From the IMG/VR virus record IMGVR_UViG_3300007177_000042: a stretch of DNA of 64,000 nucleotides, one strand, 5' to 3'. Numbering within the stretch: position 1 is the stretch's first letter; the number at the start of each line of letters is the position of its first letter. Of this stretch, positions 8,123 through 39,046 are shown in pieces. This stretch comes from a virus (lineage: Duplodnaviria > Caudoviricetes). Position numbers and translations under genes: made by a program. Under the pieces are notes generated by a model. It saw nothing but the letters and a program-made list of their open reading frames with translations. It made no database searches and was not told the DNA's origin.

Positions 8123-8750
8123 GAATTCATCAGGTTGCCGAATACGAGGCTTAATCTGAAAGGACGATGAGTCTGATGAATTCTTGATTTACAGATTGTT
8201 GTCCGCGTGGATATGGTACGAACGTGGACTCACGAAGCGAGGCGGCCCCAAATCGACAACAATCTGTTAAGGTTTGCGGTGATCCTAATCAAAACCGCTT
8301 GACTTTCTTCACAGAAGTTCTTTACAAGTCAGAAAAGTCTGATAAGATATTTTCAGTTGATGAGGCTATAGACAATCCGTTGGGAAATAAAGCAGAGAAA
8401 TGACGGGACTCTGCCATCAACCTATAATTTTCAGTGGAAAATAACCGGAAGTAATGTACCGGGCCTCCACAAGGAGGTGAGATACGTAGTCATCGTGTAT
8501 CCACTGACAGCTAACTCAGAGAGTGCCAGTCAATAGATGCCGAGCATGGGGCGACTGGTAATGCCGCTGAGGAAATGGAGAACCAGACCTGCTGTTCAAA
8601 GAATGAAAACTGGATCACTTTTAACCAAGCAATAGAGATTAGCTACTCGAAAACAGTCAAAAGTTGTACTGATAACAGCGTTGCAGGCGGCCTGTAAAAT
8701 AATGTACGCAAACGGAAACAGATGAACAATGACTTTTTTGCTTGGTTGTA
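8123..8750 (+). ncRNA. Cluster of stem-closed structured RNAs (unknown)
   Basis: Terminal helices GAATTCATCAG/CTGATGAATTC (8123-8183), ACAGATTGTTGTC/GACAACAATCTGT (8191-8267), GTTGATG/CATCAAC, TCAGTGGA/TCCACTGA, AACCAAGCAA/TTGCTTGGTT (8623-8747); no plausible + strand ORF. Confidence 0.55.
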
Positions 8751-16532: not shown

Positions 16533-16702
16533 ATGATGATAAATATCAAAAAAAATTTGAGTTTTTCACAATTGTTAAATACTTATTGGTGTAAATGATT
16601 AGATATACACACATTAAACGCTGGGATACCTTTACAAATTGTGAAGGGCGTTGGCGGCTGGTGTTGTGAAGTCTTGTATAGAAAATCTCAAACAACATCG
16701 AC

Positions 16703-16740
16703 CGTCACCCAGAAATGAGTGACGGTTTTTTGTTTTTTGG
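16703..16740 (+). terminator. Intrinsic terminator
   Basis: ACCGTCAC...GTGACGGT followed by a T tract. Confidence 0.75.
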
Positions 16741-16876
16741 CATTGACGAAACGAGATGGTGGTGATAGTGTAAGTGGACAGTAGACAACGAGTTTGAAAA
16801 CTCGATCTACGAAAGATTTAAAAAGCAGTTGACGAAACGAAAGTTTCTGATATACTGAGTGAAGATTAAAGACGGT

Positions 16877-16997
16877 TTGAAACTCCATCTGTTGAACCGC
16901 CGCCAGTGAGTCGATGAAAATCGACGATAGGTAAAGTCTGGAAAAATCAATTGATTGGTCCTTGGGTGTTATCCTCGTAGAGAACCCGTAGGGCGAT
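16877..16997 (+). ncRNA. Operon-leader RNA motif, copy A (paralog at 35062)
   Basis: Blocks TTGAAACTCYATCTG, TTGATYGGTC and GGTGTTATCCTMGTAGAGAACC-nGTAnGGCGAT are shared with 35062-35148. Confidence 0.65.
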
Positions 16998-17047
16998 GAC
17001 GGCATAACCGAGGTTATTGCTGTGAACATTGAAAAATAAATGTAAGT

Positions 17048-17137
17048 GCCAACATGACCCGAATGGCTAAGGGCCCTGTTTTGTAAACAGGTATGAGGTA
17101 AAACTCTTTGTCGGTTCAAGTCCGACTGTTGGCTCCA
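17048..17137 (+). tRNA. tRNA-Thr(UGU) with long variable arm
   Basis: GCCAACA/TGTTGGC-T-CCA; loop TTTGTAA; V arm GAGGTAAAACTC. Confidence 0.85.
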
Positions 17138-17146
17138 ATTTATAAT

Positions 17147-17225
17147 GGTGTATGTAGCATAATTGGTTTAATGCCCCAGATTGTGAGTCTGGCAGATGCG
17201 GGTTCAAATCCCGTCGTACACCCCA
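17147..17225 (+). tRNA. tRNA-His(GUG)
   Basis: G-1:C73, loop TTGTGAG. Confidence 0.95.
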
Positions 17226-17286
17226 AATTTCGAGAGTAACGGTTGATGACCGAAGTTGATGCGATCCATCAGAACTCTCACATTAT

Positions 17287-17362
17287 GGTCCCATCGTCTA
17301 ATAGGAAAGGATTCTAGATTCTCAATCTGGAGAACTCGGTTCGACTCCGAGTGGGACTGCCA
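17287..17362 (+). tRNA. tRNA-Glu(CUC)
   Basis: Loop TTCTCAA, CCA. Confidence 0.95.
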
Positions 17363-17371
17363 ATTTACAAT

Positions 17372-17444
17372 CACCTTATCGTCTAACATAGGACGCCCAG
17401 TGCTCGAGTGGGAAATTTTGGTTTGATACCAAGTAAGGTGGCCA
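17372..17444 (+). tRNA. Atypical tRNA-Glu(CUC)-like
   Basis: CACCTTA/TAAGGTG-G-CCA; loop TGCTCGA lacks U33; T loop TTTGATA. Confidence 0.55.
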
Positions 17445-17453
17445 ATTTACAAT

Positions 17454-17528
17454 GGTCTATTCGACTACCAGCTAGGTCGCTAGTTTTTCAAACTGGAGAA
17501 GTGGGGGCGGCACCCACATAGACTACCA
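17454..17528 (+). tRNA. tRNA-Glu(UUC)
   Basis: Loop TTTTCAA; T loop GGCGGCA. Confidence 0.9.
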
Positions 17529-17538
17529 ATTTACATAT

Positions 17539-17614
17539 ATCCGCCCATGTACCAAGGCTGGCGACAGAGACTCCAAATCTCAGTGGGTAGGTTCGATTCC
17601 TACGGTGGATGCCA
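17539..17614 (+). tRNA. tRNA-Trp(CCA)
   Basis: Loop CTCCAAA; 3' half overlapped antisense by the HNH gene. Confidence 0.85.
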
Positions 17615-25628: not shown

Positions 25629-25703
25629 GTCTCGTTGGTCGAGTAGTTAGGCGACTGTCTGCAAAACAGTATTAGATTGGTGCAAATCCAATACGGGACT
25701 CCA
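25629..25703 (+). tRNA. tRNA-Cys(GCA)
   Basis: Loop CTGCAAA, U73. Confidence 0.9.
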
Positions 25704-25724
25704 ATTTCATTGCAGTGAAAGCAC

Positions 25725-25847
25725 ATGATTGAGATAGACACATCTCTATGGGTTCGATTCCCTCTGGTGAAGGAGTATAAAATGTGGAACGGTAAGGCTG
25801 TACAGCCGTTTGGGAGTAATTATCCCCCGTGAAATCCTCTTAATCAT
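25725..25847 (+). ncRNA. wwAGA/GAAC/GTGAAATC motif RNA, copy 5
   Basis: ATGATT/AATCAT; GAG-ATAGA-[CACAT...ATGTG]-GAAC-[two hairpins]-GTGAAATC-CTC. Confidence 0.7.
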
Positions 25848-25856
25848 AACTACTTA

Positions 25857-26039
25857 TTGTTTATGCCAAATAAAAGCCTATACACATCGTTTCTTGACAT
25901 GAAACGTGAAATTGAAAAACATAAGTGGATTGAAAGTGAAAAGTGTGGACGGGATATTGGATTTGAAATAGCATTGATAGAATGGATAACCAAACACCGA
26001 TATGGGTGGTTAAAACAGAAACAAGAAGATAACGGTTGA
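25857..26039 (+). CDS. Small protein resembling Verrucomicrobia DUF4032-like proteins
   Basis: SLY...REIEKHKWIESEKCGRDIGFEIALIEWITKHR. Confidence 0.65.
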   Translation: MFMPNKSLYTSFLDMKREIEKHKWIESEKCGRDIGFEIALIEWITKHRYGWLKQKQEDNG

Positions 26040-26081
26040 CAAAACGAACTATAGGTGATACTCTGTATTAAGATTTTTTAT

Positions 26082-26157
26082 GGTCTGGTAGCCGAGAGAA
26101 TTAGGTAGGAGTTTGCAAAACTCCTTTACGGTGGTTAGAGTCCATCCCAGACCTCCA
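26082..26157 (+). tRNA. tRNA-Cys(GCA)
   Basis: Loop TTGCAAA, U73. Confidence 0.85.
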
Positions 26158-26189
26158 ATTTTATGAAAAAACTGTAGAACTGTAAAGAA

Positions 26190-26417
26190 GTGGTGTTTCA
26201 CTTCAACAAGGCACATCTGAATGATAATAATATTCCGATGTGGGTTTTAAAAACAAAAGGCGAGACACATTATGTCAATCATGTGATTGCTAATGTTGGG
26301 TGGTCTACAAAAGAAACACCTGATAATAATCATACCAAAGGCAGTCTTAAGTTTAAGAATGTCGATGTGATTATTGATGAACAGAACGAGGCAACAATTT
26401 CTGCGGCTGTAGCTTAA
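26190..26417 (+). CDS. Conserved phage hypothetical protein
   Basis: FHFNK...PMWVLKTKGETHYVNHV...TKETPDN.HTKGS; 3' end overlaps the suppressor tRNA. Confidence 0.7.
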   Translation: MVFHFNKAHLNDNNIPMWVLKTKGETHYVNHVIANVGWSTKETPDNNHTKGSLKFKNVDVIIDEQNEATISAAVA

Positions 26418-26478
26418 CGGTATAAAGCAGTCGTCTCTAAAACGACCAATATGGGTTCGAATCCCATCAGGCGCACCA
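26403..26478 (+). tRNA. Amber suppressor tRNA (anticodon CUA)
   Basis: GTCGT-CTCTAAA-ACGAC; canonical D and T arms; A73-CCA; one G:G mismatch in the acceptor stem. Confidence 0.85.
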
Positions 26479-26634
26479 ATTTTACGATATCAGAAACTAG
26501 TTGACAAGATCGAGTTTTTGATGTAGAGTAGTAAGACAATAAAGTTCGTATATTTCGATAACGGCTTGAAACCGAGAAGAAGAAAGTTTCAAAAAGTTGT
26601 TGACGAAACCGGAAAACGGTGGTAAGATATACGA

Positions 26635-27565
26635 ACAATAAGAATTCGATGGAGTTGAGACTGTAGCTCAACTTAAAAGAGTGACTAGGAACCGAATCCA
26701 TCAAATCGTTCTTTGTAAGAAACAAGATTTGGGGTGCTTGAACTCCATATAAGATAGTGAGTAGTAATACTCATGAAAGAGGTAATCCCCTAACGGATCC
26801 TCGCCTTCGCAAGAAGGACAGTCAAGCAACTGGCAATGTCTGTGACTTTCATCCAAAAGGTGGAAGTATATCCGACGCTGGATCGACAAATGATAACTGA
26901 GGGTAACACTGTAAGTTGTCTACTAACGGTACCGCCGAGCACTGTTGATTCCTTAAGTGGAACAGCCACGAATAAGACACAAGCCAAAGATACGGGTGTG
27001 AGACCGCAATCAAATGCTCGTATGTAGATTGATAGAAAGTGGGCAGGGTAACCAGAACACAATCTTGAAAATCGGTGAAGTATCCGCAAGAGAAACACAT
27101 GTGGTGTGTCGCATATTGTATCCCAAAAGGGTATGAAACGACAAACAACGCACATCACGGTTAGGTGCATAATTAGCTCAATGGTAGAGCAATTCCTTTG
27201 TACGGAATATGTTATTGGTTCAAATCCAGTATTATATTAAAAACGCAAAGTCGTTGTTTGTCTAAGATGAAAGTGACTTAACTCTGTGACCGAAAGGTAA
27301 CACAGACAACGAAACATCCGCAAGATGCTAGTTGTTAATTGGAGTCTGAACGGAGTCCGCAAGACTTAACTGCTCGCAAGGCAGACGGTTGGATGAAGGT
27401 TGAATAGTCTTAGGTTAAGGTTGAAAAGCCACAACCCTAAAAAGGCAGTCATGTTGAATACAGTTATAGACGCAAGTCGTAACCGTGGATATGTTGGGAA
27501 GCCGATCCGCAAGATTGGTATAATCTAACTAAAGGTCAACAGATAAAGCGGTAATCTCACGCCAA
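26635..27565 (+). ncRNA. GOLLD-like giant ornate RNA (about 930 nt)
   Basis: ORF-poor; many GCAA/GAAA tetraloop hairpins; terminal GCG-GTAATCTCA-CGC hairpin recalled as a GOLLD 3' signature; promoter TTGACG...TAAGAT upstream; tRNA-array context. Confidence 0.7.
27167..27238 (+). tRNA. Degenerate tRNA-Thr(UGU) embedded in the GOLLD-like RNA
   Basis: D arm GCTC/GAGC; ATTCC-TTTGTAC-GGAAT; T arm; weak acceptor stem, no CCA. Confidence 0.6.
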
Positions 27566-27572
27566 TCAAATA

Positions 27573-27626
27573 AATAAGCAATGTGATAGACATTCGGAAC
27601 GTTTGTGAAATCCACAACAGCTTATT
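27573..27626 (+). ncRNA. wwAGA/GAAC/GTGAAATC motif RNA, copy 6 (minimal)
   Basis: AATAAGC/GCTTATT; TGTG-ATAGA-CATTCG-GAAC-GTTT-GTGAAATC-CACA. Confidence 0.7.
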
Positions 27627-27679
27627 CTTCCTAGAATAAAAATATCCTCCTTTCAAAGTATTTCGTACTTATCTTCAGT

Positions 27680-28375
27680 ATGGCCATAATAACAAATCGA
27701 TATCAACAATTTTATACACACGACGGAAAAATTTTCGATCTAAATACTGTAGATTGGAACAATAATTTGTTGGATATTGAACAGAAATATGGGTGGGAAG
27801 CCGCAATGGCTTTTACCAACCTTGTTCATGATGATATCAACATGATTGGTCGAGGTGTAAGAGAAGGAGATGTAGTAATAGATTTGGGAGCTAATATAGG
27901 AATGTCGGCGTTAAATATGGAACGAAAGAAAGCAGACAAAATCTATTGCGTCGAACCTGATCGTAGAAGTTACGAAACTTTGTTGTTGAATAAAAACAAA
28001 AATTGGATCGTAGATAATTTCGCCATAAGTTCTTCAAGTGGAACAGTTAAGGTTGGTGAGTGGCCATATCAAACAACCGTCGATGTACGTGCAATAACAT
28101 TGGATCAGTATTTTGCACAACACAATCTTTCGTATGTTAATTTCATGAAAGTTGATATTGAGGGTAATGAAAATCATGTGTTTGATACTGTAAGTCAATC
28201 CACTATGGATAAGATCGAATCGATGGCAATAGAATATCACGAAGACGAGTCACAATCATTTGAACAAAAAAATTTCAATAGATCGAAGTTTGTTGACAAG
28301 TTTGTATCAAAGGGATTTACAAATTACGCTGTATTAATTCGAATGTATCAGTCAATGATCTATTTCTGGAAGTAG
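27680..28375 (+). CDS. FkbM-family methyltransferase
   Basis: DVVIDLGANIG...VEPD...TLDQYF...MKVDIEGNE. Confidence 0.88.
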   Translation: MAIITNRYQQFYTHDGKIFDLNTVDWNNNLLDIEQKYGWEAAMAFTNLVHDDINMIGRGVREGDVVIDLGANIGMSALNMERKKADKIYCVEPDRRSYETLLLNKNKNWIVDNFAISSSSGTVKVGEWPYQTTVDVRAITLDQYFAQHNLSYVNFMKVDIEGNENHVFDTVSQSTMDKIESMAIEYHEDESQSFEQKNFNRSKFVDKFVSKGFTNYAVLIRMYQSMIYFWK

Positions 28376-28423
28376 AAAATAAGATTTGTTCTATTACAAT
28401 ATCGATCAAATACCAAAAAATGT

Positions 28424-29341
28424 TTGTTAATTGATTTGACTTTGGTAGTTATTGTCATGACCGATGTGGTTTGTGACGTAAAGCCAAAAAAGACAAAGTT
28501 ATTTGTATCAAAAGAACAACTCGAAATTCTAACTTCGACACCTCTACTATTGTCGATAGAAGAGTATGTTACCATAAAATGGACACTGTTTTTTGGAACC
28601 AAACTTTCGGACGAGGATCATAGACTGTTAGTAAAATATGTAGACGAGTTTAGACAGACCGATCAATCGATACAGTCTGGTTTTGATTTTATAAGACGTA
28701 ATCCTAAATTGTTGGAATACCAAAAAGTTCAAGTTGGTGAAGGTGAATTTGCCTTATTTCTTCTTTTTACAGACGCGGTGAGAGTAAACAAAGGAGATCT
28801 GAAATTCAAAAATGAACATTATGAAGTAAAAAGAATCAAAGAGCCAAATGAAGCTATAAGGTTTGGAACCAACGTTAACATTCAATCAATAAACAATTTT
28901 CGATATGTCACATTTGGTCTTAAACGATTTTTCAATTATTGTGACTATAGCAATCATCCAGACAATATTCATATAAAATCATTGTACAACCAAATAATTG
29001 GCGAATCGGATGCGTCTGTCACTAAAGCCAAGTTAGTTGAGCTGTATCAGTTTTTCTACAAGATCACCGATTTGTGTAATTGTGGGACATCACCCGAATT
29101 CAATAAAATGTGCGATGATGTTAGGAGAGTAGTAGGGCCATTTGTACATCAATATCCAACACCAGAAGTGTTTGGCACATCTGTCACCAACGAACTCATT
29201 GATTTTTATAGAAATTTGAATACCAAAATACTTATTATTGATCACAACAATCGGTTCATAACCAATCCTAATATTGTTTTTCATTCGCTCAATCAATATG
29301 TAAGACCACAAATGACGCTTGTTATCGATTTTTCGGGTTGA
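28424..29341 (+). CDS. Hypothetical protein (start uncertain)
   Basis: Long ORF; VGEGEFAL...KGDL...YEVK is weakly nuclease-like. Confidence 0.65.
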   Translation: MLIDLTLVVIVMTDVVCDVKPKKTKLFVSKEQLEILTSTPLLLSIEEYVTIKWTLFFGTKLSDEDHRLLVKYVDEFRQTDQSIQSGFDFIRRNPKLLEYQKVQVGEGEFALFLLFTDAVRVNKGDLKFKNEHYEVKRIKEPNEAIRFGTNVNIQSINNFRYVTFGLKRFFNYCDYSNHPDNIHIKSLYNQIIGESDASVTKAKLVELYQFFYKITDLCNCGTSPEFNKMCDDVRRVVGPFVHQYPTPEVFGTSVTNELIDFYRNLNTKILIIDHNNRFITNPNIVFHSLNQYVRPQMTLVIDFSG

Positions 29342-29498
29342 CAAAAAGAGTTGAATGTTCTATGATTAAATCATGATGAAGATACTATTTATCATACTGA
29401 GTGGACTAATTATCTACGCAGTGTTTGTTGTTATGGTTGGCCGATTCTGTGGATTGTCAGACTATCCAAACGACGAACATGATAATTGAAATTTTAAT

Positions 29499-29573
29499 GG
29501 AGTCATCGTCTATCGGCTAGGACACTGCCCTTTCAAGGCGGGAAGAGGGGTTCGATTCCCCTTGGCTCTACCA
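29499..29573 (+). tRNA. tRNA-Glu(UUC)
   Basis: Loop CTTTCAA. Confidence 0.95.
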
Positions 29574-29578
29574 AATTT

Positions 29579-29930
29579 GCCTCTAAGTGATGGAGTTATT
29601 TCGTGTCACTTGTTGCCCTAACAACTCTTGTCAAAAACAATGACATCGAATCATTGAAAGAGACTCGAAACGAAATGCGGGTACAGAGGTATAAAGAGTT
29701 TATCAGTAACTCAGTTAAAAACTGATTGGTGGAGGGTAGTAGAAAACTACGCCCCTAGAGTTTGTAAGTTCTCTACAAAAACTTGATGGCGGAGGGGACT
29801 TACAGAAGTAAAACTCTGTGTCCTCCAGAGTTGGAAGTCTCTTAAAAAACTTCTTGGTTGCGGGGTTAGCGCATGGTATACTCTGTTGTATCGTCTGGAT
29901 AGAGTGTTCAATAACCACAGACGATCCAAT
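29579..29930 (+). ncRNA. Unknown structured RNA(s), about 350 nt
   Basis: GCCTCT/AGAGGT, GGAGG(G)GAC/GTCCTCC, AACTCT/AGAGTT and ATCGTCTG/CAGACGAT helices; no + strand ORF. Confidence 0.45.
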
Positions 29931-29953
29931 TTTACTGTTCTTTAAAACTCAAT

Positions 29954-30036
29954 TGCAGGGACAAGCCGAAGGACGCTATCTACGCTCATAACGTAGGCGA
30001 AAGCTATGGTTGGTGCAACTCCAACCTCTGCACCCA
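29954..30036 (+). tRNA. Atypical tRNA(CAU) with extra arm
   Basis: CTACG-CTCATAA-CGTAG; divergent D region; C73. Confidence 0.65.
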
Positions 30037-30044
30037 AATTTAAT

Positions 30045-30116
30045 GGCTGGGGTTTCAGCAAACGACGAATCCTCATAAGGTTTGTTAAGTGGGGGCAGCA
30101 CCCATACCAGCTACCA
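30045..30116 (+). tRNA. tRNA(CAU) (Met or Ile2), short D arm
   Basis: Loop CTCATAA; T loop GGCAGCA. Confidence 0.7.
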
Positions 30117-30516
30117 TTTCAGAGCACAATTCAATGTTGGGTTGCTAACCTACCAAAACAAATTGATGGACGACCTTGGGAATTGTCGTGTTTTATGATT
30201 TGTTTACTGTTCGACAATAACATTGAATGTAATTTACGCCCGGAGCATATCCGATAAATAGGAGGACTGATAAGAAACCTCGCCAAAAGCGAAACTTGTA
30301 AAGTACCGGCGACGATTTTAGATGTTGACAAAACGAAAGGTTGTGTTAACATGGTTTTAGGTTAGTTGAGTCCGATACCTTAGATTAAAAACTCAACGGC
30401 AGTTTACAAGTTACACGCCAAAAAAAACTTGTCCAGTGATGGGAGATCAATCACCGGTTTTGTGGTTTAACGGCTAAACCACACGGATTTTTTGTTAGTT
30501 CTTTTTGAAATTTAAT

Positions 30517-30593
30517 TGCGGGGTGGAGCAGCCTGGTAGCTCGCTACGCTCATAACGTAGAGGTCGCTGGTTCAAATCCAGCCCCCGCAACCA
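30517..30593 (+). tRNA. Initiator-like tRNA-Met(CAU)
   Basis: fMet body TGCGGGGTGGAGCAGCCTGGTAGCTCG; anticodon stem lacks the three G-C pairs. Confidence 0.9.
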
Positions 30594-30599
30594 ATTTAT

Positions 30600-30693
30600 G
30601 GTCCTGTAGTTTAATCGGTAAAACCCCATACTTATGATATGGTAATCGCTAGATTGGCGTAAATTCTCGGTTCGAATCCGGGCGGGACTACCA
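30600..30693 (+). tRNA. tRNA-Ile(UAU) with long variable arm
   Basis: CCATA-CTTATGA-TATGG; V arm CGCTA-GAT-TGGCG; 94 nt. Confidence 0.8.
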
Positions 30694-30792
30694 CTTTCAA
30701 ACACATAGGGACGGGTTCAAGGTCCGTCGCTCTCTCAAATCAATGAGGAGACGTGGTGTAGGTAGGAAGCATAATGAGTTTGATAACAATTT

Positions 30793-30956
30793 GACCGTGT
30801 AATGGAATTAGACATACGGATGACAGGTAGCATGGAGTACGAGGCTCTGGGTGGTTCCAGAGTACAGTTGAATAAAACCATGTCTGTCAGACGGGTGCTA
30901 GATATAGCCTGACCAGCCTTGAAACTAGTTATAGGTAGCCAATCCTATCACGGTCC
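30793..30956 (+). ncRNA. tRNA-scaffolded RNA carrying a variant of the repeated motif
   Basis: GACCGTG/CACGGTC; Leu/Ser-like D arm; T-like ATAGG/CCTAT; insert TGACAG/CTGTCA; CTAG-ATATAG-CCT-GACC-AGCC-TTGAAA-CTAG. Confidence 0.6.
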
Positions 30957-30965
30957 ACAATTTAC

Positions 30966-31048
30966 GGGTATGTGACGGAATGGCAGACGTAGTTGACTCA
31001 AAATCAACCGCCGAAAGGCGTGGGGGTTCGACTCCCTCCATACCCACC
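30966..31048 (+). tRNA. tRNA-Leu(CAA)
   Basis: Loop CTCAAAA, V arm. Confidence 0.95.
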
Positions 31049-31120
31049 AATTTATATGACAACATGCGAATATACTTCTACTCGTTTTTTATGTAGGTAA
31101 ATTCAAGCAATAACGCTTGG

Positions 31121-31516
31121 ATGCCACATGAAAACATGAGAAATCCAAACAAATATTACAGAAACAAAAACGCAAAGAAAAACGCACGCCGTCGTGCTTT
31201 TTCTATTAACGGAGGCGAATTTGCCTATCGAAGCTATATGCCATATTGTTTTTGGCCTGGCTGTAAAGACTATTCACACGAAGAACAATTGAAAGATCAC
31301 ATCGAATATATCGAGACTCATTGGGTTCGATCTTTTCTTAATGGTAATCGACGCGGTGCTTTTCACGCACCAAAATGGTTTCGTCAATACATTGAACGAC
31401 GCGAACGTCACATCGTGAATCAAAAAGTTCGGAATGTTTCTAAACTTCACAACGAAGATATTGACGAATACGAGTTTCCAATGTATAAACATAATGCTGA
31501 TTGGGATTGGTTTTGA
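31121..31516 (+). CDS. Basic hypothetical protein
   Basis: ORF track; HAPKWFR motif. Confidence 0.6.
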   Translation: MPHENMRNPNKYYRNKNAKKNARRRAFSINGGEFAYRSYMPYCFWPGCKDYSHEEQLKDHIEYIETHWVRSFLNGNRRGAFHAPKWFRQYIERRERHIVNQKVRNVSKLHNEDIDEYEFPMYKHNADWDWF

Positions 31517-31520
31517 TGTT

Positions 31521-31607
31521 GCCACCGTGGTGAAATTGGCAGACACATGGGACTTAAAATCCCTCGACCGCAAGGTCATGCCGGTTCAAGTCCGGCCGGT
31601 GGTACCA
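31521..31607 (+). tRNA. tRNA-Leu(UAA)
   Basis: Loop CTTAAAA. Confidence 0.95.
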
Positions 31608-31617
31608 AATTTCTTAT

Positions 31618-31692
31618 GCCTCATAAACATAGATAGCGATGTGATAGTTTCGTAAACTATAAAGTACAGTGCAAGTCTGTAATGAGGCTCCA
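31618..31692 (+). tRNA. tRNA-Thr(CGU)
   Basis: Loop TTCGTAA. Confidence 0.85.
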
Positions 31693-31697
31693 ATTTT

Positions 31698-31726
31698 GCC
31701 CAGAAACTTTGTTTCTGGGTTTTTTT
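31698..31726 (+). terminator. Intrinsic terminator ending the first tRNA operon
   Basis: CCCAGAAAC-tttg-TTTCTGGG followed by a T tract. Confidence 0.8.
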
Positions 31727-31923
31727 GTGCATAAGCCAAATGTGTTTTCGATTTATAATTACTATGTATTTGTTCCTACAAAGTGATTGACCTCACGGAA
31801 CTGTTATGGTATAGTTTAGTCTGAATGTCCGATTGTGTTTTTTGACACTAAGGACGGCAAAGAAATCAATATGTGTTGATGGATTTGTTACAATCACTAA
31901 AACAAAACGAGAATAAATAAAAT

Positions 31924-32622
31924 ATGAAGAAACTACTAGTAATGCTGACGGCTCTTATTGCTTCCGTCTCTATCCACGCAGCTGACATCGCCAACATTGG
32001 TATTGAGGCTGGTTACAACAACCACTATACTGTTAATGGTGTCTCCCGTGCTGAAAACGCTGCATTTGTCGGATTCAATGCTGTCAAGTCACTTAAGTAT
32101 GCCGACGTTTATGTTGGCGGCACCCTACTTCCGACTGGCGACGATGATCAGTCTCACTGGGTCGTTGGTCTTGGAAAGACGGTGGACTTCAATAAGGAAT
32201 GGTCTGCTCGGTTGACTACCGACGTTACACGTCATCAAGCCGGTGGATTTGGTATTCCTAACTCGACTGAGTTTGGAGTTAAGTTGGCATTGAATAATCC
32301 ATATGTGACACCTTATGTCCGAGGAGCATTCGATATCGATTTGCACCAGAACGGCGTGTTTGTTGGTGCCCAACGTGTTCAGCCGTTGTTTTACGGTTTT
32401 ACCGTTACTCCTATTGTCGAGTATGGTTATGTTAATGACTATGAGACTATTAATGTGAAGGGCACTCTCGCTCGTCCATTCACTACTCCTATTGGAACAG
32501 TGACTCCGTTTGTTGAGGTCGGGTGGTTTGATAACAACTTTGACACTGCCAAGTATAATTGGGCAACCCGTGAATTTTCGGGAACAGTTGTTTACACTGC
32601 TGGATTGAAGCTTAATTTCTAA
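31924..32622 (+). CDS. Outer-membrane beta-barrel protein
   Basis: Sec signal peptide (SIHA|ADI), alternating amphipathic strands, C-terminal LKLNF. Confidence 0.8.
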   Translation: MKKLLVMLTALIASVSIHAADIANIGIEAGYNNHYTVNGVSRAENAAFVGFNAVKSLKYADVYVGGTLLPTGDDDQSHWVVGLGKTVDFNKEWSARLTTDVTRHQAGGFGIPNSTEFGVKLALNNPYVTPYVRGAFDIDLHQNGVFVGAQRVQPLFYGFTVTPIVEYGYVNDYETINVKGTLARPFTTPIGTVTPFVEVGWFDNNFDTAKYNWATREFSGTVVYTAGLKLNF

Positions 32623-32646
32623 TCTGAAAAATTAGGTTGACTCAAA

Positions 32647-32685
32647 CCGACAGCAGTGGTAAAACATTGCTGTCGGTATTTTTTT
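32647..32685 (+). terminator. Intrinsic terminator
   Basis: ACCGACAGCA...TGCTGTCGGT followed by a T tract. Confidence 0.85.
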
Positions 32686-32701
32686 GTAAGGAGATAACTA
32701 T

Positions 32702-32938
32702 ATGGCACATTTTATCAAGTTAAACGTGTTGGATCCGTCGCACGATGTTAATAGTAACAAACGAGAATACATTCCACAATTGATTAACCTAGATATGGTA
32801 GTATCTGTTGAACCGTCTAAAGTTCACAGTTTGGTTTTTGTAAAAAACAACCAACAACCAATCAGGGTTAAAGAGTCGTTGGATGAAATTCTTTCTCTTA
32901 GTAAGAACTGTAACGAAAAAACAAAGATCAATGGATAA
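32702..32938 (+). CDS. FlbD/YlzI-like small protein
   Basis: FIKL...LINLDMVVSVE...IRVKESLDEIL. Confidence 0.55.
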   Translation: MAHFIKLNVLDPSHDVNSNKREYIPQLINLDMVVSVEPSKVHSLVFVKNNQQPIRVKESLDEILSLSKNCNEKTKING

Positions 32939-33034
32939 AGGTTTTCCGCCCACCGGGCGGATTTTTTATGATCGGGTGTAATACAATTTGTATGATAAAT
33001 GTATGCGTGAATTTTTTCCGGAAATATAATTGAG

Positions 33035-33664
33035 TCACCATATCCATCCGATTTGATATTCGTCGAAATATGGGCTTTTGTTTATATGGTTCATATAATC
33101 GTTGATATATTTCCCTTTACCTTTTCCATGATCATTATCATCTACAACAATTAGTGTTCCCTTTTTAATTTTTGGAAATATTGCTAATAGTTCTTTAAAA
33201 TGATGTAACGAACTATTATGCGGATTATTCCAATCCACATCATACGAATCTAAGTACAAAAAATCAACTAAGGGAAATGTAGGAGAGTTGCTAAAATTAT
33301 GAAGCGTAGTTACGCTATCGGCACAAATAACTGTTGATTTGGAAGACAACATTGGTTTGGTTAATTCACACGCGTCATGGTTTATATCAATTGTGGTAAA
33401 CGAACCAGACCGTTTAAAAAAGTGTAGGTATTCATCGATCAATAACGTACTATGACCATCACCCGTATAATTGTTAATAGATCGACTAATACCAGTTTCA
33501 ATGATCACTGGGTTTGGAATCGTATCTAAATACCCAAATATTTTTTTGAACGTACTAAATCGATGTGACAACCCTGTGTATATTTCAAAATACTCAGAAT
33601 GTCGTTTTGAAGAATTGTTAATGGTTGATTGTTGTTGCTTTTTATAGTCATCGAAATATGCCAT
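33035..33664 (-). CDS. Class I SAM-dependent methyltransferase
   Basis: VIIETG...TIDI...DSV...DFLYLDSYD...LIVVDD. Confidence 0.8.
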   Translation of the reverse strand: MAYFDDYKKQQQSTINNSSKRHSEYFEIYTGLSHRFSTFKKIFGYLDTIPNPVIIETGISRSINNYTGDGHSTLLIDEYLHFFKRSGSFTTIDINHDACELTKPMLSSKSTVICADSVTTLHNFSNSPTFPLVDFLYLDSYDVDWNNPHNSSLHHFKELLAIFPKIKKGTLIVVDDNDHGKGKGKYINDYMNHINKSPYFDEYQIGWIW

Positions 33665-33722
33665 GATTTAATATATCATTAAAAAAATCGAATTGATTGT
33701 TTTATTTACTACTTAAAATTGC

Positions 33723-34655
33723 ATGAAATCTAACTCAAAAATTTACGTTGCTGGACATAATGGTATGGTAGGCTCTGCCATCTGGAGATCATTATTATCG
33801 AAAGGATATGACAATTTGATGGGAGCATCCAGTAGGGATTTGGATTTGAAAGATCAGCAAAAGGTCAACAATTTTTTTGAAATCACAAATCCGGAGTATG
33901 TTGTGGTTGCTGCTGCAAAAGTTGGTGGTATTGTTGCCAACAGTACATATCCAGCGGAATTTATTTACAACAACCTTCAGATTCAAAACAACTTAATTGA
34001 ATCATCTCGACGATATGGTGTAAAAAAATTGTTGTTTTTGGGAAGCAGTTGTATCTATCCTAAGTATGCTCCACAGCCGATTCGTGAAGAACATTTGTTG
34101 ACAGGCACTCTTGAACCTACAAATGAATGGTATGCTCTGGCAAAAATTGCAGGAATCAAGATGTGTCAGGCATATCGCAAACAATACGGGTGTAACTTCA
34201 TAAGTGCTATGCCGTGTAACTTGTATGGAGAACGTGATAATTTCGATTTGAATACTTCACATGTTTTGCCAGCGTTGATTCGAAAGTTTCACGAAGCCAA
34301 AGTCTACAACAAGCCACAAGTCGTTTGCTGGGGAACGGGTACGCCTATGAGAGAGTTCCTTTACGTAGATGATTTGGCGGACGCCTGTGTATTTTTGTTA
34401 GAGAGTTACGATGAAGATCAACACATCAATGTTGGATTCGGTGAAGACATTACAATCAAACAAGCAGTTGAAACCGTCCGTGATGTTGTTGGTTATGAAG
34501 GAGAAATTGTATGGGACACTACAAAGCCAGATGGAACGCCACGAAAGATAATGGATAGCACAAGAATTCAAAACATGGGGTGGAAACCAAAAGTTCAGTT
34601 ACGAGAGGGATTGGAAAAAACTTACTATTGGTTCAAAAATTCTGTACGTTTTTGA
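33723..34655 (+). CDS. fcl: GDP-L-fucose synthase
   Basis: AGHNGMVGSA, AAAKVGGI, GSSCIYPK, YALAK, WGTGTPMREF, KPDGTPRK. Confidence 0.95.
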   Translation: MKSNSKIYVAGHNGMVGSAIWRSLLSKGYDNLMGASSRDLDLKDQQKVNNFFEITNPEYVVVAAAKVGGIVANSTYPAEFIYNNLQIQNNLIESSRRYGVKKLLFLGSSCIYPKYAPQPIREEHLLTGTLEPTNEWYALAKIAGIKMCQAYRKQYGCNFISAMPCNLYGERDNFDLNTSHVLPALIRKFHEAKVYNKPQVVCWGTGTPMREFLYVDDLADACVFLLESYDEDQHINVGFGEDITIKQAVETVRDVVGYEGEIVWDTTKPDGTPRKIMDSTRIQNMGWKPKVQLREGLEKTYYWFKNSVRF

Positions 34656-34787
34656 AATTTGCCAATATGTATTGACAGAATGAAGAATCAATCCGTACAG
34701 TCAAGTGTAGTCGCCGGACAATCAAGTCCAGCGCTATTGCCTAGCTTAAGCTAGAACTGACTAACGGTAAATTTGCTAAAGAACAAA

Positions 34788-34822
34788 CCGTTGGTCCACA
34801 AAACCAACGGTTTTTTGTTTTT
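34788..34822 (+). terminator. Intrinsic terminator
   Basis: AACCGTTGG...CCAACGGTT followed by a T tract. Confidence 0.75.
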
Positions 34823-35061
34823 GAGCAAGGCTTGACTTTTCAAAGAGACGTGGTATAGTGAATGGACAATAAAGAACGACAATATGGAAAACGACATTGA
34901 CAATACAACGCAGTTGGATTACCTTAGAAACAAGATGTTGAATGAACGGTATCCAACATACCAATACTACATGGCAATTAAGCAAGTTGCTGATAGTATT
35001 TTTCCTGAACCGGAATACAAGTATTTGAAATTGTTGAATATTGAGTAAAAAAATTTTGGGC

Positions 35062-35148
35062 TTGAAACTCTATCTGGTGTGCCCTTCGTAAGATAAAACA
35101 CTTGATCGGTCAACTGGTGTTATCCTAGTAGAGAACCAGTATGGCGAT
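35062..35148 (+). ncRNA. Operon-leader RNA motif, copy B
   Basis: Paralog of 16877-16997 with covarying stems. Confidence 0.65.
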
Positions 35149-35167
35149 AAATTGGTACAAATTTAAC

Positions 35168-35242
35168 GGGCGGTTAGCTCAGTGGAAGAGCAGATCCTTT
35201 ACACGGATAAGGTCAGAGGTTCAAATCCTTTACCGCCTACCA
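35168..35242 (+). tRNA. tRNA-Val(UAC)
   Basis: Loop TTTACAC. Confidence 0.95.
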
Positions 35243-35249
35243 TTTTTAT

Positions 35250-35327
35250 CGGAGTGTAGCTCAACTTGGCTAGAGCGCTTGCTTTGGGAGCAAGAAGTTG
35301 CAGGTTCAAATCCTGTCACTCCGACCA
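35250..35327 (+). tRNA. tRNA-Pro(UGG)
   Basis: Loop TTTGGGA. Confidence 0.95.
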
Positions 35328-35333
35328 TTTTAC

Positions 35334-35411
35334 GGTGATATAGACCAACTGGAAGGAGTCGTTACTTTGAGAGAGTAAATAGTGCAGGTTCGAATCCTGT
35401 TATCACCACCA
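35334..35411 (+). tRNA. tRNA-Leu(GAG), short variable loop
   Basis: TTACT-TTGAGAG-AGTAA. Confidence 0.85.
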
Positions 35412-35414
35412 ATT

Positions 35415-35498
35415 CGGCATATGATGTAATAGAAGCCATGCGAGTCTTAGAAGCTCGTGGAGAAATCCGTGGGGGTGCAAGTCCCTCTATGCCGACCA
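35415..35498 (+). tRNA. tRNA-Leu(UAG)
   Basis: Loop CTTAGAA, V arm. Confidence 0.9.
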
Positions 35499-35505
35499 AT
35501 TTAAT

Positions 35506-35583
35506 GGCTACGTAGACCAACCGGAAGGAGTCGTCTATCTCAAAAATAGAATAGTGCTGGTTCGAATCCAGTCGTAGCTACCA
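35506..35583 (+). tRNA. tRNA-Leu(CAA), short variable loop
   Basis: TCTAT-CTCAAAA-ATAGA. Confidence 0.85.
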
Positions 35584-35592
35584 ATTTATAAT

Positions 35593-35677
35593 GGGTGTGT
35601 GGACACGGCGAAACTGGAAGAAGCGTCTCATTTAAAACGAGAAGTCCTTGTGAGTTCGAATCTCACCACACCTACCA
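35593..35677 (+). tRNA. tRNA-Leu(UAA), atypical (large D loop, short V region)
   Basis: Loop TTTAAAA. Confidence 0.7.
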
Positions 35678-35683
35678 ATTTAT

Positions 35684-35759
35684 GGGCTGGCATGTTCTAA
35701 GGGAGCGAGACTGTTTTGCAAACAATCTGTTGTGAGTTCGATTCTCATCTGGTCCACCA
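35684..35759 (+). tRNA. tRNA-Ala(UGC)
   Basis: G3-U70; loop TTTGCAA. Confidence 0.8.
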
Positions 35760-35879
35760 ATTTTTTTGCTAGTTTGAACGTAACCACATATTCATGTGGA
35801 CGAGGGGACGACCCCGCTTAGACGCACTAAGAAGATTTGTTCTTAGTGGTAAGACGGCTTCAAACGGTACACATTTTAT

Positions 35880-35969
35880 GGAAGGGTGGCTGAGTGGCTT
35901 AAGGCGTCGGTCTTGAAAACCGAAGGGGCCTCAAAACCTCCGGGGGTTCGAATCCCTCTCCTTCCTCCA
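35880..35969 (+). tRNA. tRNA-Ser(UGA)
   Basis: Loop CTTGAAA. Confidence 0.95.
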
Positions 35970-35975
35970 ATTTAT

Positions 35976-36069
35976 GGATGGTAGACGAATAGTTAGTTAG
36001 TCGTATCTGTTTGCTAAACAGACGTGGCCTAAAAAACCACTGTGGGGGCAGCACCCACATCATCCGCCA
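35976..36069 (+). tRNA. tRNA-Ser(GCU)
   Basis: Loop TTGCTAA; T loop GGCAGCA. Confidence 0.9.
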
Positions 36070-36075
36070 ATTTGT

Positions 36076-36162
36076 GGAACATAAACCGGACAGCCGTGCC
36101 GGAACTGATTCGAAATCAGATTGCACTATGTGTGTGGGGTTGAAGTCCTCTGTGTTCCGCCA
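36076..36162 (+). tRNA. tRNA-Ser(CGA)
   Basis: Loop TTCGAAA. Confidence 0.85.
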
Positions 36163-36164
36163 AT

Positions 36165-36252
36165 GGAGAGTAAACCAGTTAGGTACTGGGGTTGATTGGA
36201 AATCAGCACGCACCTTGAAAGGTGTGAGTTTCGAATACTCTGCTCTCCTCCA
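36165..36252 (+). tRNA. tRNA-Ser(GGA)
   Basis: Loop TTGGAAA. Confidence 0.85.
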
Positions 36253-36341
36253 TTTAATAACACTCCACTTGACATTGGAACCGAGAACTGATAGATTGAT
36301 ATCGTTCCTTGAAGAAATCGGAGATTGTCAAAAGATTTTAT

Positions 36342-36433
36342 GGTGAGGTGTCTGAGTGGTCTAAAGAGACAGTTTGCTAAACTGTTGTACGGTTAACCCC
36401 GTACCGAGGGTTCGAATCCCTCCCTCACCGCCA
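36342..36433 (+). tRNA. tRNA-Ser(GCU)
   Basis: Canonical. Confidence 0.95.
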
Positions 36434-36438
36434 ATTTT

Positions 36439-36512
36439 GCGGGTATAGCTCAATGGTAGAGTGTCAGTCTTCCAAACTGATTATGCGGGTTCAATTCCCG
36501 CTACCCGCTCCA
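36439..36512 (+). tRNA. tRNA-Gly(UCC)
   Basis: Canonical. Confidence 0.95.
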
Positions 36513-36522
36513 AGTTTATGAC

Positions 36523-36596
36523 TGGGGATTTGCATAATGGTAGTGCAGGAGACTTTGGATCTCTTAGTGAAGGTTCGATTCCTTCATCCCCTGCCA
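36523..36596 (+). tRNA. tRNA-Gln(UUG)
   Basis: Loop CTTTGGA. Confidence 0.92.
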
Positions 36597-36844
36597 ACAT
36601 TTATATATGTCAGTTAAGGGTCTAACTTTAGAGAAATTGTAACTAGTGATCATATGTTACAAAAGTAAATTCTAGTTGTCGAAAGGCACGTTGATCAAAC
36701 ACTGACTGAAATTTTGTTACGATAGATACATGGTAAACACAGTTAAGTGTTCGTGGAATCAAAATAATCGTCTAATAAATATAGGACGATAAATACCACC
36801 AAGATCGCATGTCGCTATAGCAAACTTTATCGTAACGTTTTTAT

Positions 36845-37968: not shown

Positions 37969-38283
37969 TTTGACACAAGTGACTCTACGCTGGTGTAAAT
38001 AACACTAGAGGAAGTTCGCTGCTGCACAGCAGATGATTGGGAGGACATAAGTTAACTTCAAATTGCCCACAACGATTAAAAGATTGCAATTCCGTGGAAG
38101 CAAGGAGCAATCCGGTTAACCTCAGTCCGTTAAAACCACAAATTAGCAGTAATCCTAAATAACCCGAGTGTAGTGCTGCACGTTGAAGGGTGAGGTTGGA
38201 GCAGTTGTTTTTAACGAACAACCAGTAGTAATACTGAGAGAAATGTAGGGATAAAACAGAACAGCGGCTATGGCTGTGTCAAA
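37969..38283 (+). ncRNA. rnpB: RNase P RNA (divergent)
   Basis: P1 TTTGACACA/TGTGTCAAA; P2 CTCTAC/GTAGGG; P3 hairpin; CR-I GAGGAAGTTCGCTG (38008) pairs with CR-V ACAGAACAGCGGCTA (P4 with bulged U); P18-like CAGTA-GTAA-TACTG followed by AGAGAAATG. Confidence 0.78.
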
Positions 38284-39015: not shown

Positions 39016-39046
39016 CAAGGCCTGTATTACACAGGCCTTTTTTTTA
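39016..39046 (+). terminator. Intrinsic terminator ending the second tRNA operon
   Basis: AAGGCCTGT-atta-ACAGGCCTT followed by a T tract. Confidence 0.85.

What the first reader, a model, noticed from the sequence alone, without database searches (positions are those of the whole stretch)
16877..35148. A second RNA motif in two copies, each heading a tRNA operon
Seen: 16877-16997 and 35062-35148 share TTGAAACTCYATCTG, TTGATYGGTC and GGTGTTATCCTMGTAGAGAACC-nGTAnGGCGAT. Covarying helices (GTTGA/TCAAT vs GTGT/ACAC; GGG/CCC vs CTGG/CCAG) flank variable inserts. Each copy lies just before the first tRNA of a polycistron (Thr 17048; Val 35168). Inference: a leader element for antitermination, processing or a ribozyme, analogous to rRNA-operon leaders.
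Basis: partly seen in the sequence, partly recalled or inferred. Interest (0 to 1): 0.78.

Follow-up and report, generated by a model that had tools for sequence, protein, structure and literature searches.

The report
Pseudoknotted leader RNA heading phage tRNA arrays
A large freshwater phage and about 46 related phage contigs begin their long tRNA-gene transcripts with a strongly conserved, folded RNA of 90-135 bases that matches no catalogued RNA family and whose function is untested.

Summary
The two copies (16868-17000 and 35053-35151, + strand) belong to a structured RNA family with 65 copies (41 distinct) on the window's own record, 46 other IMG/VR phage contigs and 2 short MAG contigs.

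Nearly all genomes that hold both arrays carry two paralogues. Type A precedes the tRNA-Thr(UGU) array. Type B precedes the tRNA-Val(UAC) array.

The fold has four parts:
- a 3-4 bp helix P0 interleaved with a 5 bp helix P1, forming an H-type pseudoknot around an almost invariant 14-nt loop;
- a variable or absent P2;
- a long irregular hairpin P3 with an invariant internal loop;
- in type A only, an extra hairpin P4.

On the combined alignment 96.6% of cells pair and 9 pairs change on both sides; slid controls give 36-48%.

In most copies a sigma-70-type -10 box ends 7-12 nt before the element. RNA-library contigs cover both copies. Rfam 15 gives no match even at E<=10, and GenBank phages and bacterial chromosomes lack it.

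In four relatives an unrelated structured leader fills the same slot.

Function is untested. My best guess (about 0.35) is a cis-acting, nut/put-like processivity element. A trans-acting stable small RNA is nearly as likely (about 0.3).

An earlier scan note on another genome shares short words with copy B but describes other features.

The parts
16829..16856 (+). sigma-70-type promoter of the Thr-headed array (TTGACG, 16 nt, TATACT with TG extension)
   Evidence: The -10 box ends 11 nt before the model start, as in 14 of 20 type A copies with enough upstream DNA.
16868..17000 (+). Copy A (type A) of the leader RNA family. P0 16874-16876 pairs with 16896-16898 (a fourth pair 16873-16899 in this copy). 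Loop L0 16877-16890. P1 16891-16895 pairs with 16947-16951. Enlarged P2 domain about 16900-16946. P3 16954-16997, with internal loop GTTA/GA and distal stem-loop 16972-16981.
   Evidence: CM hits of 90.3 bits (R1) and 79.1 bits (R2); pair counts; sequence.
17000..17023 (+). Type-A-specific hairpin P4 with a conserved YGAG loop, lying between the core and tRNA-Thr
   Evidence: Present with stem changes in all 17 distinct type A downstream sequences; seen in the fold. It is not followed by a U run, so it is not an intrinsic terminator.
17048..17137 (+). tRNA-Thr(UGU), first tRNA of the array headed by copy A
34832..34859 (+). sigma-70-type promoter (TTGACT, 16 nt, TATAGT, TG extension) directly after terminator 34785-34813
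34884..35048 (+). 54-aa ORF lying between the promoter and copy B. The same arrangement appears in a sub-clade of relatives (seen upstream of the type B copies at L169 and L175).
   Evidence: No PHROG family and no close homologue in G001, G005, G006 or G008.
35053..35151 (+). Copy B (type B). P0 35058-35061 pairs with 35081-35084. L0 35062-35075. P1 35076-35080 pairs with 35098-35102. P2 is a 2-bp stem with a GTAA loop, 35086-35093. P3 35105-35148, with internal loop GTTA/GA and distal stem-loop 35123-35132.
   Evidence: CM hits of 118.1 bits and 109.4 bits; RNAalifold on an independent MAFFT alignment recovers P0 and P3; sequence.
35168..36596 (+). Array of 11 tRNAs headed by copy B (Val, Pro, Leu x3, Ala, Ser x3, Gly, Gln). 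No strong + strand terminator-like site occurs before 39017-39039.

Best explanation
This is a transcribed, structured leader RNA of phage tRNA-array operons. It consists of an H-type pseudoknot (P0/P1) that presents an almost invariant 14-nt loop, followed by a long irregular hairpin (P3) with an invariant internal loop. Shown here: the fold is maintained by compensatory changes. The element sits at the head of the two tRNA transcription units in every relative found. In most copies it starts a few nucleotides after the predicted transcription start. RNA-library contigs cover it. Inferred: it acts in cis on its own transcript. Most likely it works as a promoter-proximal processivity or antitermination element, in the manner of lambda nut or HK022 put sites or the rrn leader. 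In that model the nascent RNA, alone or with a bound factor, modifies RNA polymerase so that it completes a long, hairpin-dense and largely untranslated array. RNase P cleavage at the first tRNA would later release it as a stable fragment. I put about 0.95 on it being a genuine structured RNA family and about 0.35 on this mechanism.
For: Existence and fold:
- 65 copies, 41 distinct.
- 96.6% of cells paired, 9 pairs changed on both sides, slid controls 36-48%.
- The two strongest mutual-information pairs are P1 25-110 (UA/GC/AU) and P0 9-29 (GC/CG/UA). Both exceed the signal of the A/B clade split.
- RNAalifold on a separate MAFFT alignment finds P0 and P3.
- The distal P3 loop varies in length by 1-3 nt, which rules out coding.

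Position:
- The -10 box ends 7-12 nt before the model in 17 of 20 type A copies and 33 of 42 type B copies.
- In G006 the element stays at the promoter even though two methyltransferase-like ORFs separate it from tRNA-Thr.
- The complete genome G005 (295.8 kb) has exactly two copies, one per array. Two diverged paralogues with the same core at the heads of two operons is the nut/put pattern (established knowledge).
- In four relatives an unrelated structured RNA takes the same promoter-proximal slot, at either array. This suggests the slot itself calls for a structured leader.

Need for such an element:
- In the scan no strong + strand terminator-like site lies between tRNA-Val (35168) and 39017-39039. 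Together with the RNA genes, I read the B unit as about 4 kb of mostly untranslated RNA genes.
- The A unit runs about 15 kb with tRNA stems followed by U runs.

RNA presence:
- An exact 176-nt contig at 16854-17029 in a metatranscriptome.
- Depth of 29-101 over copy B, against 1.4 or less in the neighbouring ORF bins.
- A contig running from the element into tRNA-Val.
Against: - No experiment bears on this, and no strong internal terminator was found inside the arrays.
- RNase P should cut the element from the nascent transcript only 17-50 nt downstream. That is awkward for a tethered antiterminator.
- The window's own copy B and a sub-clade of relatives have a 54-aa ORF between promoter and element, so a strictly 5'-terminal position is not required.
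- G008 and three other contigs lack one of the two copies.
- Apparent accumulation in RNA libraries would fit a stable trans-acting RNA just as well.
- The RNA contigs are assemblies, and DNA carry-over is not excluded.
Confidence: 0.35

Rival explanations
1. It is a trans-acting stable small RNA, for example a protein sponge or decoy, or the RNA part of an RNP. It merely uses the tRNA array as an expression and processing platform: the transcription start gives its 5' end, and RNase P cleavage at the next tRNA gives its 3' end.
For: About 45 invariant unpaired or junction nucleotides suggest a specific partner. Depth in RNA libraries is far above the neighbouring ORFs. The island holds other non-tRNA RNAs expressed in the same way, namely GOLLD and tmRNA. 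Some genomes manage with a single copy, and either slot can hold a different RNA. The element need not be 5'-terminal. Phage T4's tRNA cluster likewise carries stable RNAs of unknown function (from my own knowledge, not checked here).
Against: Two diverged paralogues are kept in most genomes, always at the heads of the two arrays and never in internal slots. No complementary target was found in the window.
Confidence: 0.3
2. It is a 5'-end protective or processing-guiding structure. A compact pseudoknot a few nucleotides from the 5' triphosphate would shield the precursor from 5'-end-dependent decay (RppH/RNase E or RNase J), or order RNase P processing.
For: P0 begins about 5-10 nt after the predicted start in most copies. 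An unrelated structured leader with its own 5' hairpin can replace it.
Against: Simple protection does not explain near-invariant loops across 41 variants. It also does not explain the copies that lie behind an ORF. Processed tRNAs are stable whatever happens to the leader.
Confidence: 0.12
3. It is a ligand-sensing riboswitch aptamer that tunes tRNA-array expression. The alternative leader would then be a second aptamer class in the same slot.
For: H-type pseudoknot with an A-rich third loop and highly conserved junctions. Two unrelated folds occupy the same slot, as happens with riboswitch classes.
Against: No expression platform. P3 and P4 are not followed by U runs, the linker to the tRNA is not conserved, and there is no ribosome-binding site to sequester. 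No Rfam riboswitch matches at E<=10.
Confidence: 0.08
4. It is a new self-cleaving ribozyme that trims the leader.
For: The size, the pseudoknot, the invariant core and the interchangeability with another structured RNA in the same slot resemble how self-cleaving ribozyme classes occur. HDV-like ribozymes are linked to phage tRNA processing (from my own knowledge, not checked here).
Against: No match to any ribozyme family in Rfam 15. The helix order does not fit the HDV nested double pseudoknot (my reading of the alignment). An RNA-library contig runs uninterrupted through the element into tRNA-Val. RNase P already provides the cut.
Confidence: 0.08
5. It is not an RNA element at all: a chance repeat, a DNA-level protein-binding site or a coding sequence.
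For: None beyond its proximity to a promoter.
Against: Compensatory changes occur in five helices. Indels that are not multiples of three occur in P2 and the P3 loop. Zero chance matches are expected.
Confidence: 0.02

Closest known systems
HK022 putL/putR RNAs and lambda nutL/nutR sites (phage processive antitermination)
   Same: Two paralogous elements per phage genome, each transcribed near the start of a long operon. They are structured RNAs with conserved unpaired nucleotides and are presumed to act on their own transcript.
   Different: put is two simple stem-loops and nut is boxA plus a boxB hairpin. This element is a pseudoknot plus a 44-nt irregular hairpin. No sequence likeness was detected, no downstream terminators are defined, and the operons are tRNA arrays rather than early protein genes. 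The comparison rests on my own knowledge and could not be tested here.
rRNA-operon leader antitermination (boxA/boxB/boxC with Nus factors)
   Same: A leader of long untranslated stable-RNA operons, located between the promoter and the first RNA gene.
   Different: No boxA-like word is conserved. L0 shares only a short partial resemblance to the Firmicute boxA as I remember it. The element is phage-specific and absent from bacterial chromosomes.
GOLLD and ROOL RNAs of phage tRNA islands (Rfam RF02032; PMC12286853, PMC5737381)
   Same: Phage-borne structured RNAs of unknown function, found next to and probably co-transcribed with tRNA arrays. A GOLLD RNA lies in this same island (27101-27563).
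   Different: Those are RNAs of roughly 580 nt (ROOL) to over 800 nt (GOLLD) that assemble into cages. This one is 90-135 nt, has a different fold, is always first in the array, and comes in two paralogues.
Stable RNA species 1 and 2 of the phage T4 tRNA gene cluster
   Same: Small stable non-tRNA RNAs co-transcribed and co-processed with phage tRNAs, function unknown.
   Different: The T4 species lie at the distal end of the cluster. No sequence or structure comparison was possible with these tools (from my own knowledge).
H-type pseudoknot aptamers (for example preQ1-I, SAM-II, fluoride riboswitches)
   Same: Same topology: stem 1, loop, stem 2 abutting stem 1, and an A-rich third loop.
   Different: Loop 1 here is 14 nt and invariant. 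A large second domain (P3) follows. There is no expression platform and no Rfam match.

Membership tests
Any Rfam 15 family (4227 models, including riboswitches, ribozymes, T-box, RNase P, tRNA-like RNAs and CRISPR repeats) | Covariance-model score at or above the family's gathering threshold | tested here: not met
   The gathering-threshold scan of the window found only tRNAs, tmRNA and GOLLD. Permissive scans (E<=10) of both copies gave only chance-level hits well below threshold.
Intrinsic-terminator riboswitch or attenuator leader | An aptamer coupled to a terminator/antiterminator or to a sequestered ribosome-binding site | tested here: not met
   P3 and P4 are not followed by U runs, the linker to the tRNA is not conserved, and the downstream genes are tRNAs.
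put/nut-type processive antitermination site | Promoter-proximal position at the head of a long operon, one copy per operon | tested here: met
   The -10 box ends 7-12 nt upstream in 50 of 62 copies with enough flank. The complete genome G005 has exactly two copies, one per array. Exceptions: a sub-clade with an ORF in between.
put/nut-type processive antitermination site | Suppresses downstream terminators or pauses by modifying RNA polymerase | not testable with these tools
   Needs in vitro transcription or reporter assays. Only weak terminator-like sites were found inside the arrays.
Bacterial RNase P RNA (fragment or derivative) | CR-I/CR-V forming P4, and co-variation with the phage's own RNase P RNA | tested here: not met
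   The words shared with the phage RNase P-like RNA at 37969-38283 are not kept in G006. Its RNase P-like RNA has different P2/P3 sequences while its leader copies are unchanged. The canonical copies lack the ACAGAAC word.
T-box leader | Stem I with a specifier loop, and a UGGN bulge that covaries with the tRNA discriminator base | tested here: not met
   No Rfam T-box hit. The GGU in the junction is paired within P3, and its U does not vary between the Thr (U73) and Val (A73) contexts.
HDV-like, hatchet, pistol, twister or hammerhead self-cleaving ribozymes | The family's helix order and conserved core | tested here: not met
   No Rfam hit at E<=10. The order P0a-L0-P1a-P0b-P2-P1b-P3 does not fit the HDV nested double pseudoknot (my reading of A6). 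Self-cleavage itself is not testable here.

The most novel reading that the evidence does not exclude
This is a previously undescribed class of promoter-proximal RNA that controls phage tRNA supply by an RNA-based mechanism: an RNA-only processive antiterminator, a new ribozyme, or a new aptamer. The unrelated alternative leader would be a second class for the same job. Together they would define a dedicated 'array leader' function in phage tRNA islands.
Probability: 0.4. Interest if true: 0.8.

Novelty: new variant of a known kind. Interest (0 to 1): 0.62.

Why it matters
Phage tRNA islands are known to carry puzzling RNAs such as GOLLD and ROOL, but how such arrays are transcribed and processed is largely unstudied.

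This element is small (a minimal form of 91 nt), very strongly conserved and backed by covariation. It is tied to one position, the head of each array. That makes it an experimentally tractable entry point: a 100-nt RNA, a sigma-70-type promoter and a tRNA reporter would be enough to test it.

If it proves to be an RNA-based processivity element, ribozyme or sensor, it would add a new functional RNA class. It would also explain how jumbo phages secure expression of 30-40 tRNAs.

If it is a trans-acting decoy, it points to a host factor that these phages need to neutralise.

Tried and rejected
1. Rfam at the gathering threshold and at E<=10 gave no family.

2. blastn in 'distant' mode of both regions against 50,697 GenBank phage records matched only the tRNAs.

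3. A pattern scan of 185,579 species genomes gave 17 matches. Only two are real by the covariance model, and both lie on roughly 3-kb contigs binned into MAGs (a Phycisphaerales MAG from a lake, and a Woesearchaeota MAG). These are probably mis-binned phage DNA, so they give no evidence for a bacterial chromosomal copy and I infer no host from them.

4. The 15-nt 5' block alone returned mostly chance hits.

5. RNase P idea. The words ACTCTA..CTGGTGT..ACACT and ACAGAAC are shared with the phage RNase P-like RNA and, as I remember it, with CR-V. I rejected this because the resemblance is not kept in G006 and the canonical copies lack ACAGAAC.

6. I considered pairing of L0 with the P3 distal 3' strand, or with the junction GAUYG. 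I rejected both. P3b and the P3 extension are supported by compensatory or wobble changes, and L170's changes fit the P3 extension rather than an L0-junction pairing.

7. I considered resemblances by eye to the K-turn, the sarcin-ricin loop, the double T-loop, hairpin-ribozyme loop B, CRISPR repeat tags, boxA and the 16S 5' end. None fits beyond 5-8 nt, and none is supported by Rfam.

8. T-box-like reading of the first tRNA: no covariation with its anticodon or discriminator base.

9. MFE folding of single copies is not exceptional (z = -1.55 and +0.17). The evidence for structure comes from comparison between copies, not from folding energy.

10. Literature: four full-text searches or look-ups found no description of this element. 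The supplement of the 10,006-candidate phage RNA catalogue (PMC10690425) is not held as text, so I cannot exclude that it is listed there unnamed.

11. Parts of the 20-kb stretch without RNA-contig cover, and the ends of the RNA contigs, were not interpreted.

12. The metagenome-contig scan was not spent. The viral scans with complementary patterns already returned one tight family.


Full report
**1. Observation.**

The window is bases 40906-104905 of a 107.7-kb IMG/VR virus record that CheckV rates 31% complete. It holds 35 tRNA genes, a tmRNA and a GOLLD RNA. The closest complete relative is 295.8 kb, so this is a jumbo phage. DNA runs that hold the stretch are mostly freshwater, aquaculture, lagoon and wastewater metagenomes.

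The 22-nt block occurs exactly twice, against 0 expected by chance, even with 3 mismatches allowed. Each copy lies just upstream of the first tRNA of a dense array: Thr-UGU at 17048 and Val-UAC at 35168.

**2. Family.**

Three pattern scans of IMG/VR and two covariance models (R1 and R2) recover 65 copies, of which 41 are distinct. They lie on the window's own record, 46 other IMG/VR contigs and two short MAG contigs.

Scans that fixed only the 5' half, or only the 3' half, returned the same tight family. When one half is present, so is the other.

There are two paralogous types:
- Type A has an enlarged P2 domain and an extra hairpin P4. It precedes tRNA-Thr(UGU), typically 45-51 nt upstream.
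- Type B has a P2 that is a short stem with a 4-nt, mostly GNRA-type, loop, or no P2 at all. Its minimal form is 91 nt. It precedes tRNA-Val(UAC), 16-34 nt upstream.

Sixteen contigs hold both types. The complete genome G005 and the 89%-complete G006 each have exactly two copies, one per array, and no weaker third copy at E<=10.

The element is absent from 50,697 GenBank phage records at blastn sensitivity. In 185,579 species genomes the only true hits are two roughly 3-kb contigs binned into MAGs, most likely phage DNA.

**3. Structure.**

On the combined alignment A6, 96.6% of cells form standard pairs, against 85.1% in shuffles and 36-48% when the partners are slid by 1-3 columns. Nine pairs change on both sides (the earlier count on A4 is).

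The helices are:
- **P0**, 3 bp in all copies and 4 bp in type B and some type A copies. Its variable pair is GC in 17, CG in 15 and UA in 7 sequences.
- **P1**, 5 bp. One pair is UA/GC/AU and another is UA/AU.
- **P2**, variable. It is a 2-3 bp stem with a 4-nt, mostly GNRA-type, loop; a larger branched domain in type A; or absent.
- **P3**, about 13 bp with one bulged G and one bulged or mismatched position. It has an invariant asymmetric internal loop (G-W-U-A opposite G-A) and a distal 2-4 bp stem. That stem's second pair switches between C-G and G-C, and its loop varies freely in sequence and length.
- **P4**, type A only, a 10-11 bp hairpin with a YGAG loop.

The P0 3' strand follows the P1 5' strand directly, so P0 and P1 are interleaved. 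If both form together the result is an H-type pseudoknot. Its first loop is the almost invariant UUGAAACUCYAUCU, and its third loop ends in a run of A.

In a mutual-information scan the P1 pair and the P0 pair are the only two that rise above the signal of the A/B clade split. RNAalifold on an independent MAFFT alignment of 15 type B sequences recovers P0, P3 and the distal stem. Single-sequence folding energies are unremarkable.

About 45 unpaired or junction nucleotides are invariant or nearly so in 41 variants. The length changes of 1-3 nt in the loops exclude a coding explanation.

**4. Context.**

A terminator and a sigma-70-type promoter precede nearly every copy. The -10 hexamer ends 7-12 nt before the model start in 17 of 20 type A copies and 33 of 42 type B copies with enough flank (examples). 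P0 therefore begins roughly 5-10 nt into the transcript.

The exceptions are informative:
- In G006 two methyltransferase-like ORFs separate the type A copy from tRNA-Thr, yet the copy stays at the promoter.
- In L137 an HNH-type ORF follows the type B copy.
- In the window and a sub-clade of relatives, a conserved 54-aa ORF lies between the promoter and the type B copy. This ORF has no PHROG family and is absent from four other relatives.

Other promoter-headed tRNAs inside the island (25084 and 29338) carry different leaders.

Most telling is what happens in four contigs. There the same promoter-proximal slot holds an unrelated structured RNA of about 130 nt. It is at the Val array in three contigs and at the Thr array in one, and the other array keeps the family described here.

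**5. RNA evidence.**

I laid four freshwater metatranscriptome runs (Logan contigs) on 16700-36650:
- One run has an exact 176-nt contig at 16854-17029.
- Variants of copy B are covered at depth 29-101 in three runs. The neighbouring ORF bins (32684-34681) are at 1.4 or less, and the GOLLD region is above 1000.
- One contig runs from 35058 into tRNA-Val.

These are assemblies, so ends and strand cannot be read, and DNA carry-over cannot be ruled out. The contrast with the adjacent coding DNA nevertheless argues for real RNA.

**6. What it is not.**

No Rfam 15 family matches at any threshold. There is no terminator or ribosome-binding-site platform. The element does not fit the T-box or HDV-like architectures.

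A tempting likeness to the phage's RNase P-like RNA (noted in earlier scan findings; sequence) does not survive comparison with G006.

**7. Mechanism.**

Several features point to a cis-acting leader:
- The element is tied to the head of each array.
- Most genomes keep two diverged paralogues with one common core.
- A different structured RNA can take the same slot.

The best-known systems with this layout are the phage nut and put sites and the rrn leader. These make RNA polymerase processive through long operons. The need here is plausible. The B unit appears to be about 4 kb of mostly untranslated RNA genes, running up to the terminator-like site at 39017-39039. The A unit is about 15 kb with many tRNA stems followed by U runs. 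I therefore commit to a nut/put-like processivity leader at about 0.35.

Three points count against it. An RNase P site lies only 17-50 nt downstream. I found no clear internal terminators. A sub-clade has an ORF ahead of the element.

A trans-acting stable small RNA that uses the array as its processing platform is almost as likely (0.3). It would fit the invariant loops, the apparent accumulation and the single-copy genomes. Lesser rivals are 5'-end protection (0.12), a riboswitch without a recognisable platform (0.08) and a new self-cleaving ribozyme (0.08).

**8. Novelty and verdict.**

This is a real, well-supported, phage-specific structured RNA family that I could not find in Rfam 15 or in the searchable literature. 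An unnamed entry in the 2023 catalogue of 10,006 phage RNA candidates cannot be excluded.

In kind it resembles known structured leaders and tRNA-island RNAs, so I rate it a new variant of a known kind. There is a fair chance (about 0.4) that its mechanism is new. Interest 0.62.

Noticed in passing
window 27101-27563 (+): GOLLD RNA (Rfam RF02032, 212 bits) with tRNA-Thr(UGU) 27167-27238 embedded in it. It has by far the highest depth in four freshwater metatranscriptomes (about 85 to 2500).
   Followed up: partly
L203 9925-10066; L175 194-304; L207 about 1255-1394; L206 around 8173-8191 (-): A second, unrelated structured leader of about 130 nt. It has a 5' hairpin and a three-way junction with the conserved loop AGCCAAGGAAUAGGAGA and a GNRA-capped arm. 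It occupies the same promoter-proximal slot before tRNA-Val (three contigs) or tRNA-Thr (one contig) in place of the family reported here. It is not present in this window.
   Followed up: partly
16 contigs holding both copy types (pairs listed): The variable distal P3 stem-loop is identical in the A and B copies of the same genome in 4 of 16 genomes, and differs by one base in 3 more. A permutation test on the exact matches gives p of about 0.017. This suggests gene conversion between the two copies, or a shared genome-specific partner.
   Followed up: partly
window 34884-35048 (+); also upstream of the type B copies at L169 and L175: A conserved 54-aa ORF of no known family sits between the promoter and the type B copy in one sub-clade. 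Its stop codon lies about 10 nt before P0.
   Followed up: partly
L137 3717-4412; L151 8837-10199 (-): Insertions directly behind the leader: an HNH-type endonuclease-like ORF (231 aa) where tRNA-Val would normally lie, and two paralogous methyltransferase-like ORFs (199 and 243 aa) ahead of tRNA-Thr.
   Followed up: no
window 16742-16815: A possible second, upstream promoter, and a small hairpin (GAGTT-UGAA-AACTC, about 16792-16805) whose sequence resembles the L0 block. Both lie before the proximal promoter of copy A. L003 also has two tandem promoter-like sites.
   Followed up: no
window 37969-38283 versus 35062-35102: The 5' part of the RNase P-like RNA shares ACTCTA..CTGGTGT..ACACT with the type B leader in this genome only. 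The resemblance is not kept in G006, so it is probably chance.
   Followed up: yes
window 29369-29487 (+): A small hydrophobic ORF (about 39 aa) lies between the promoter at 29338-29366 and tRNA-Glu 29499. A different untranslated leader of about 88 nt lies between the promoter at 25084-25111 and tRNA-Arg 25199.
   Followed up: no
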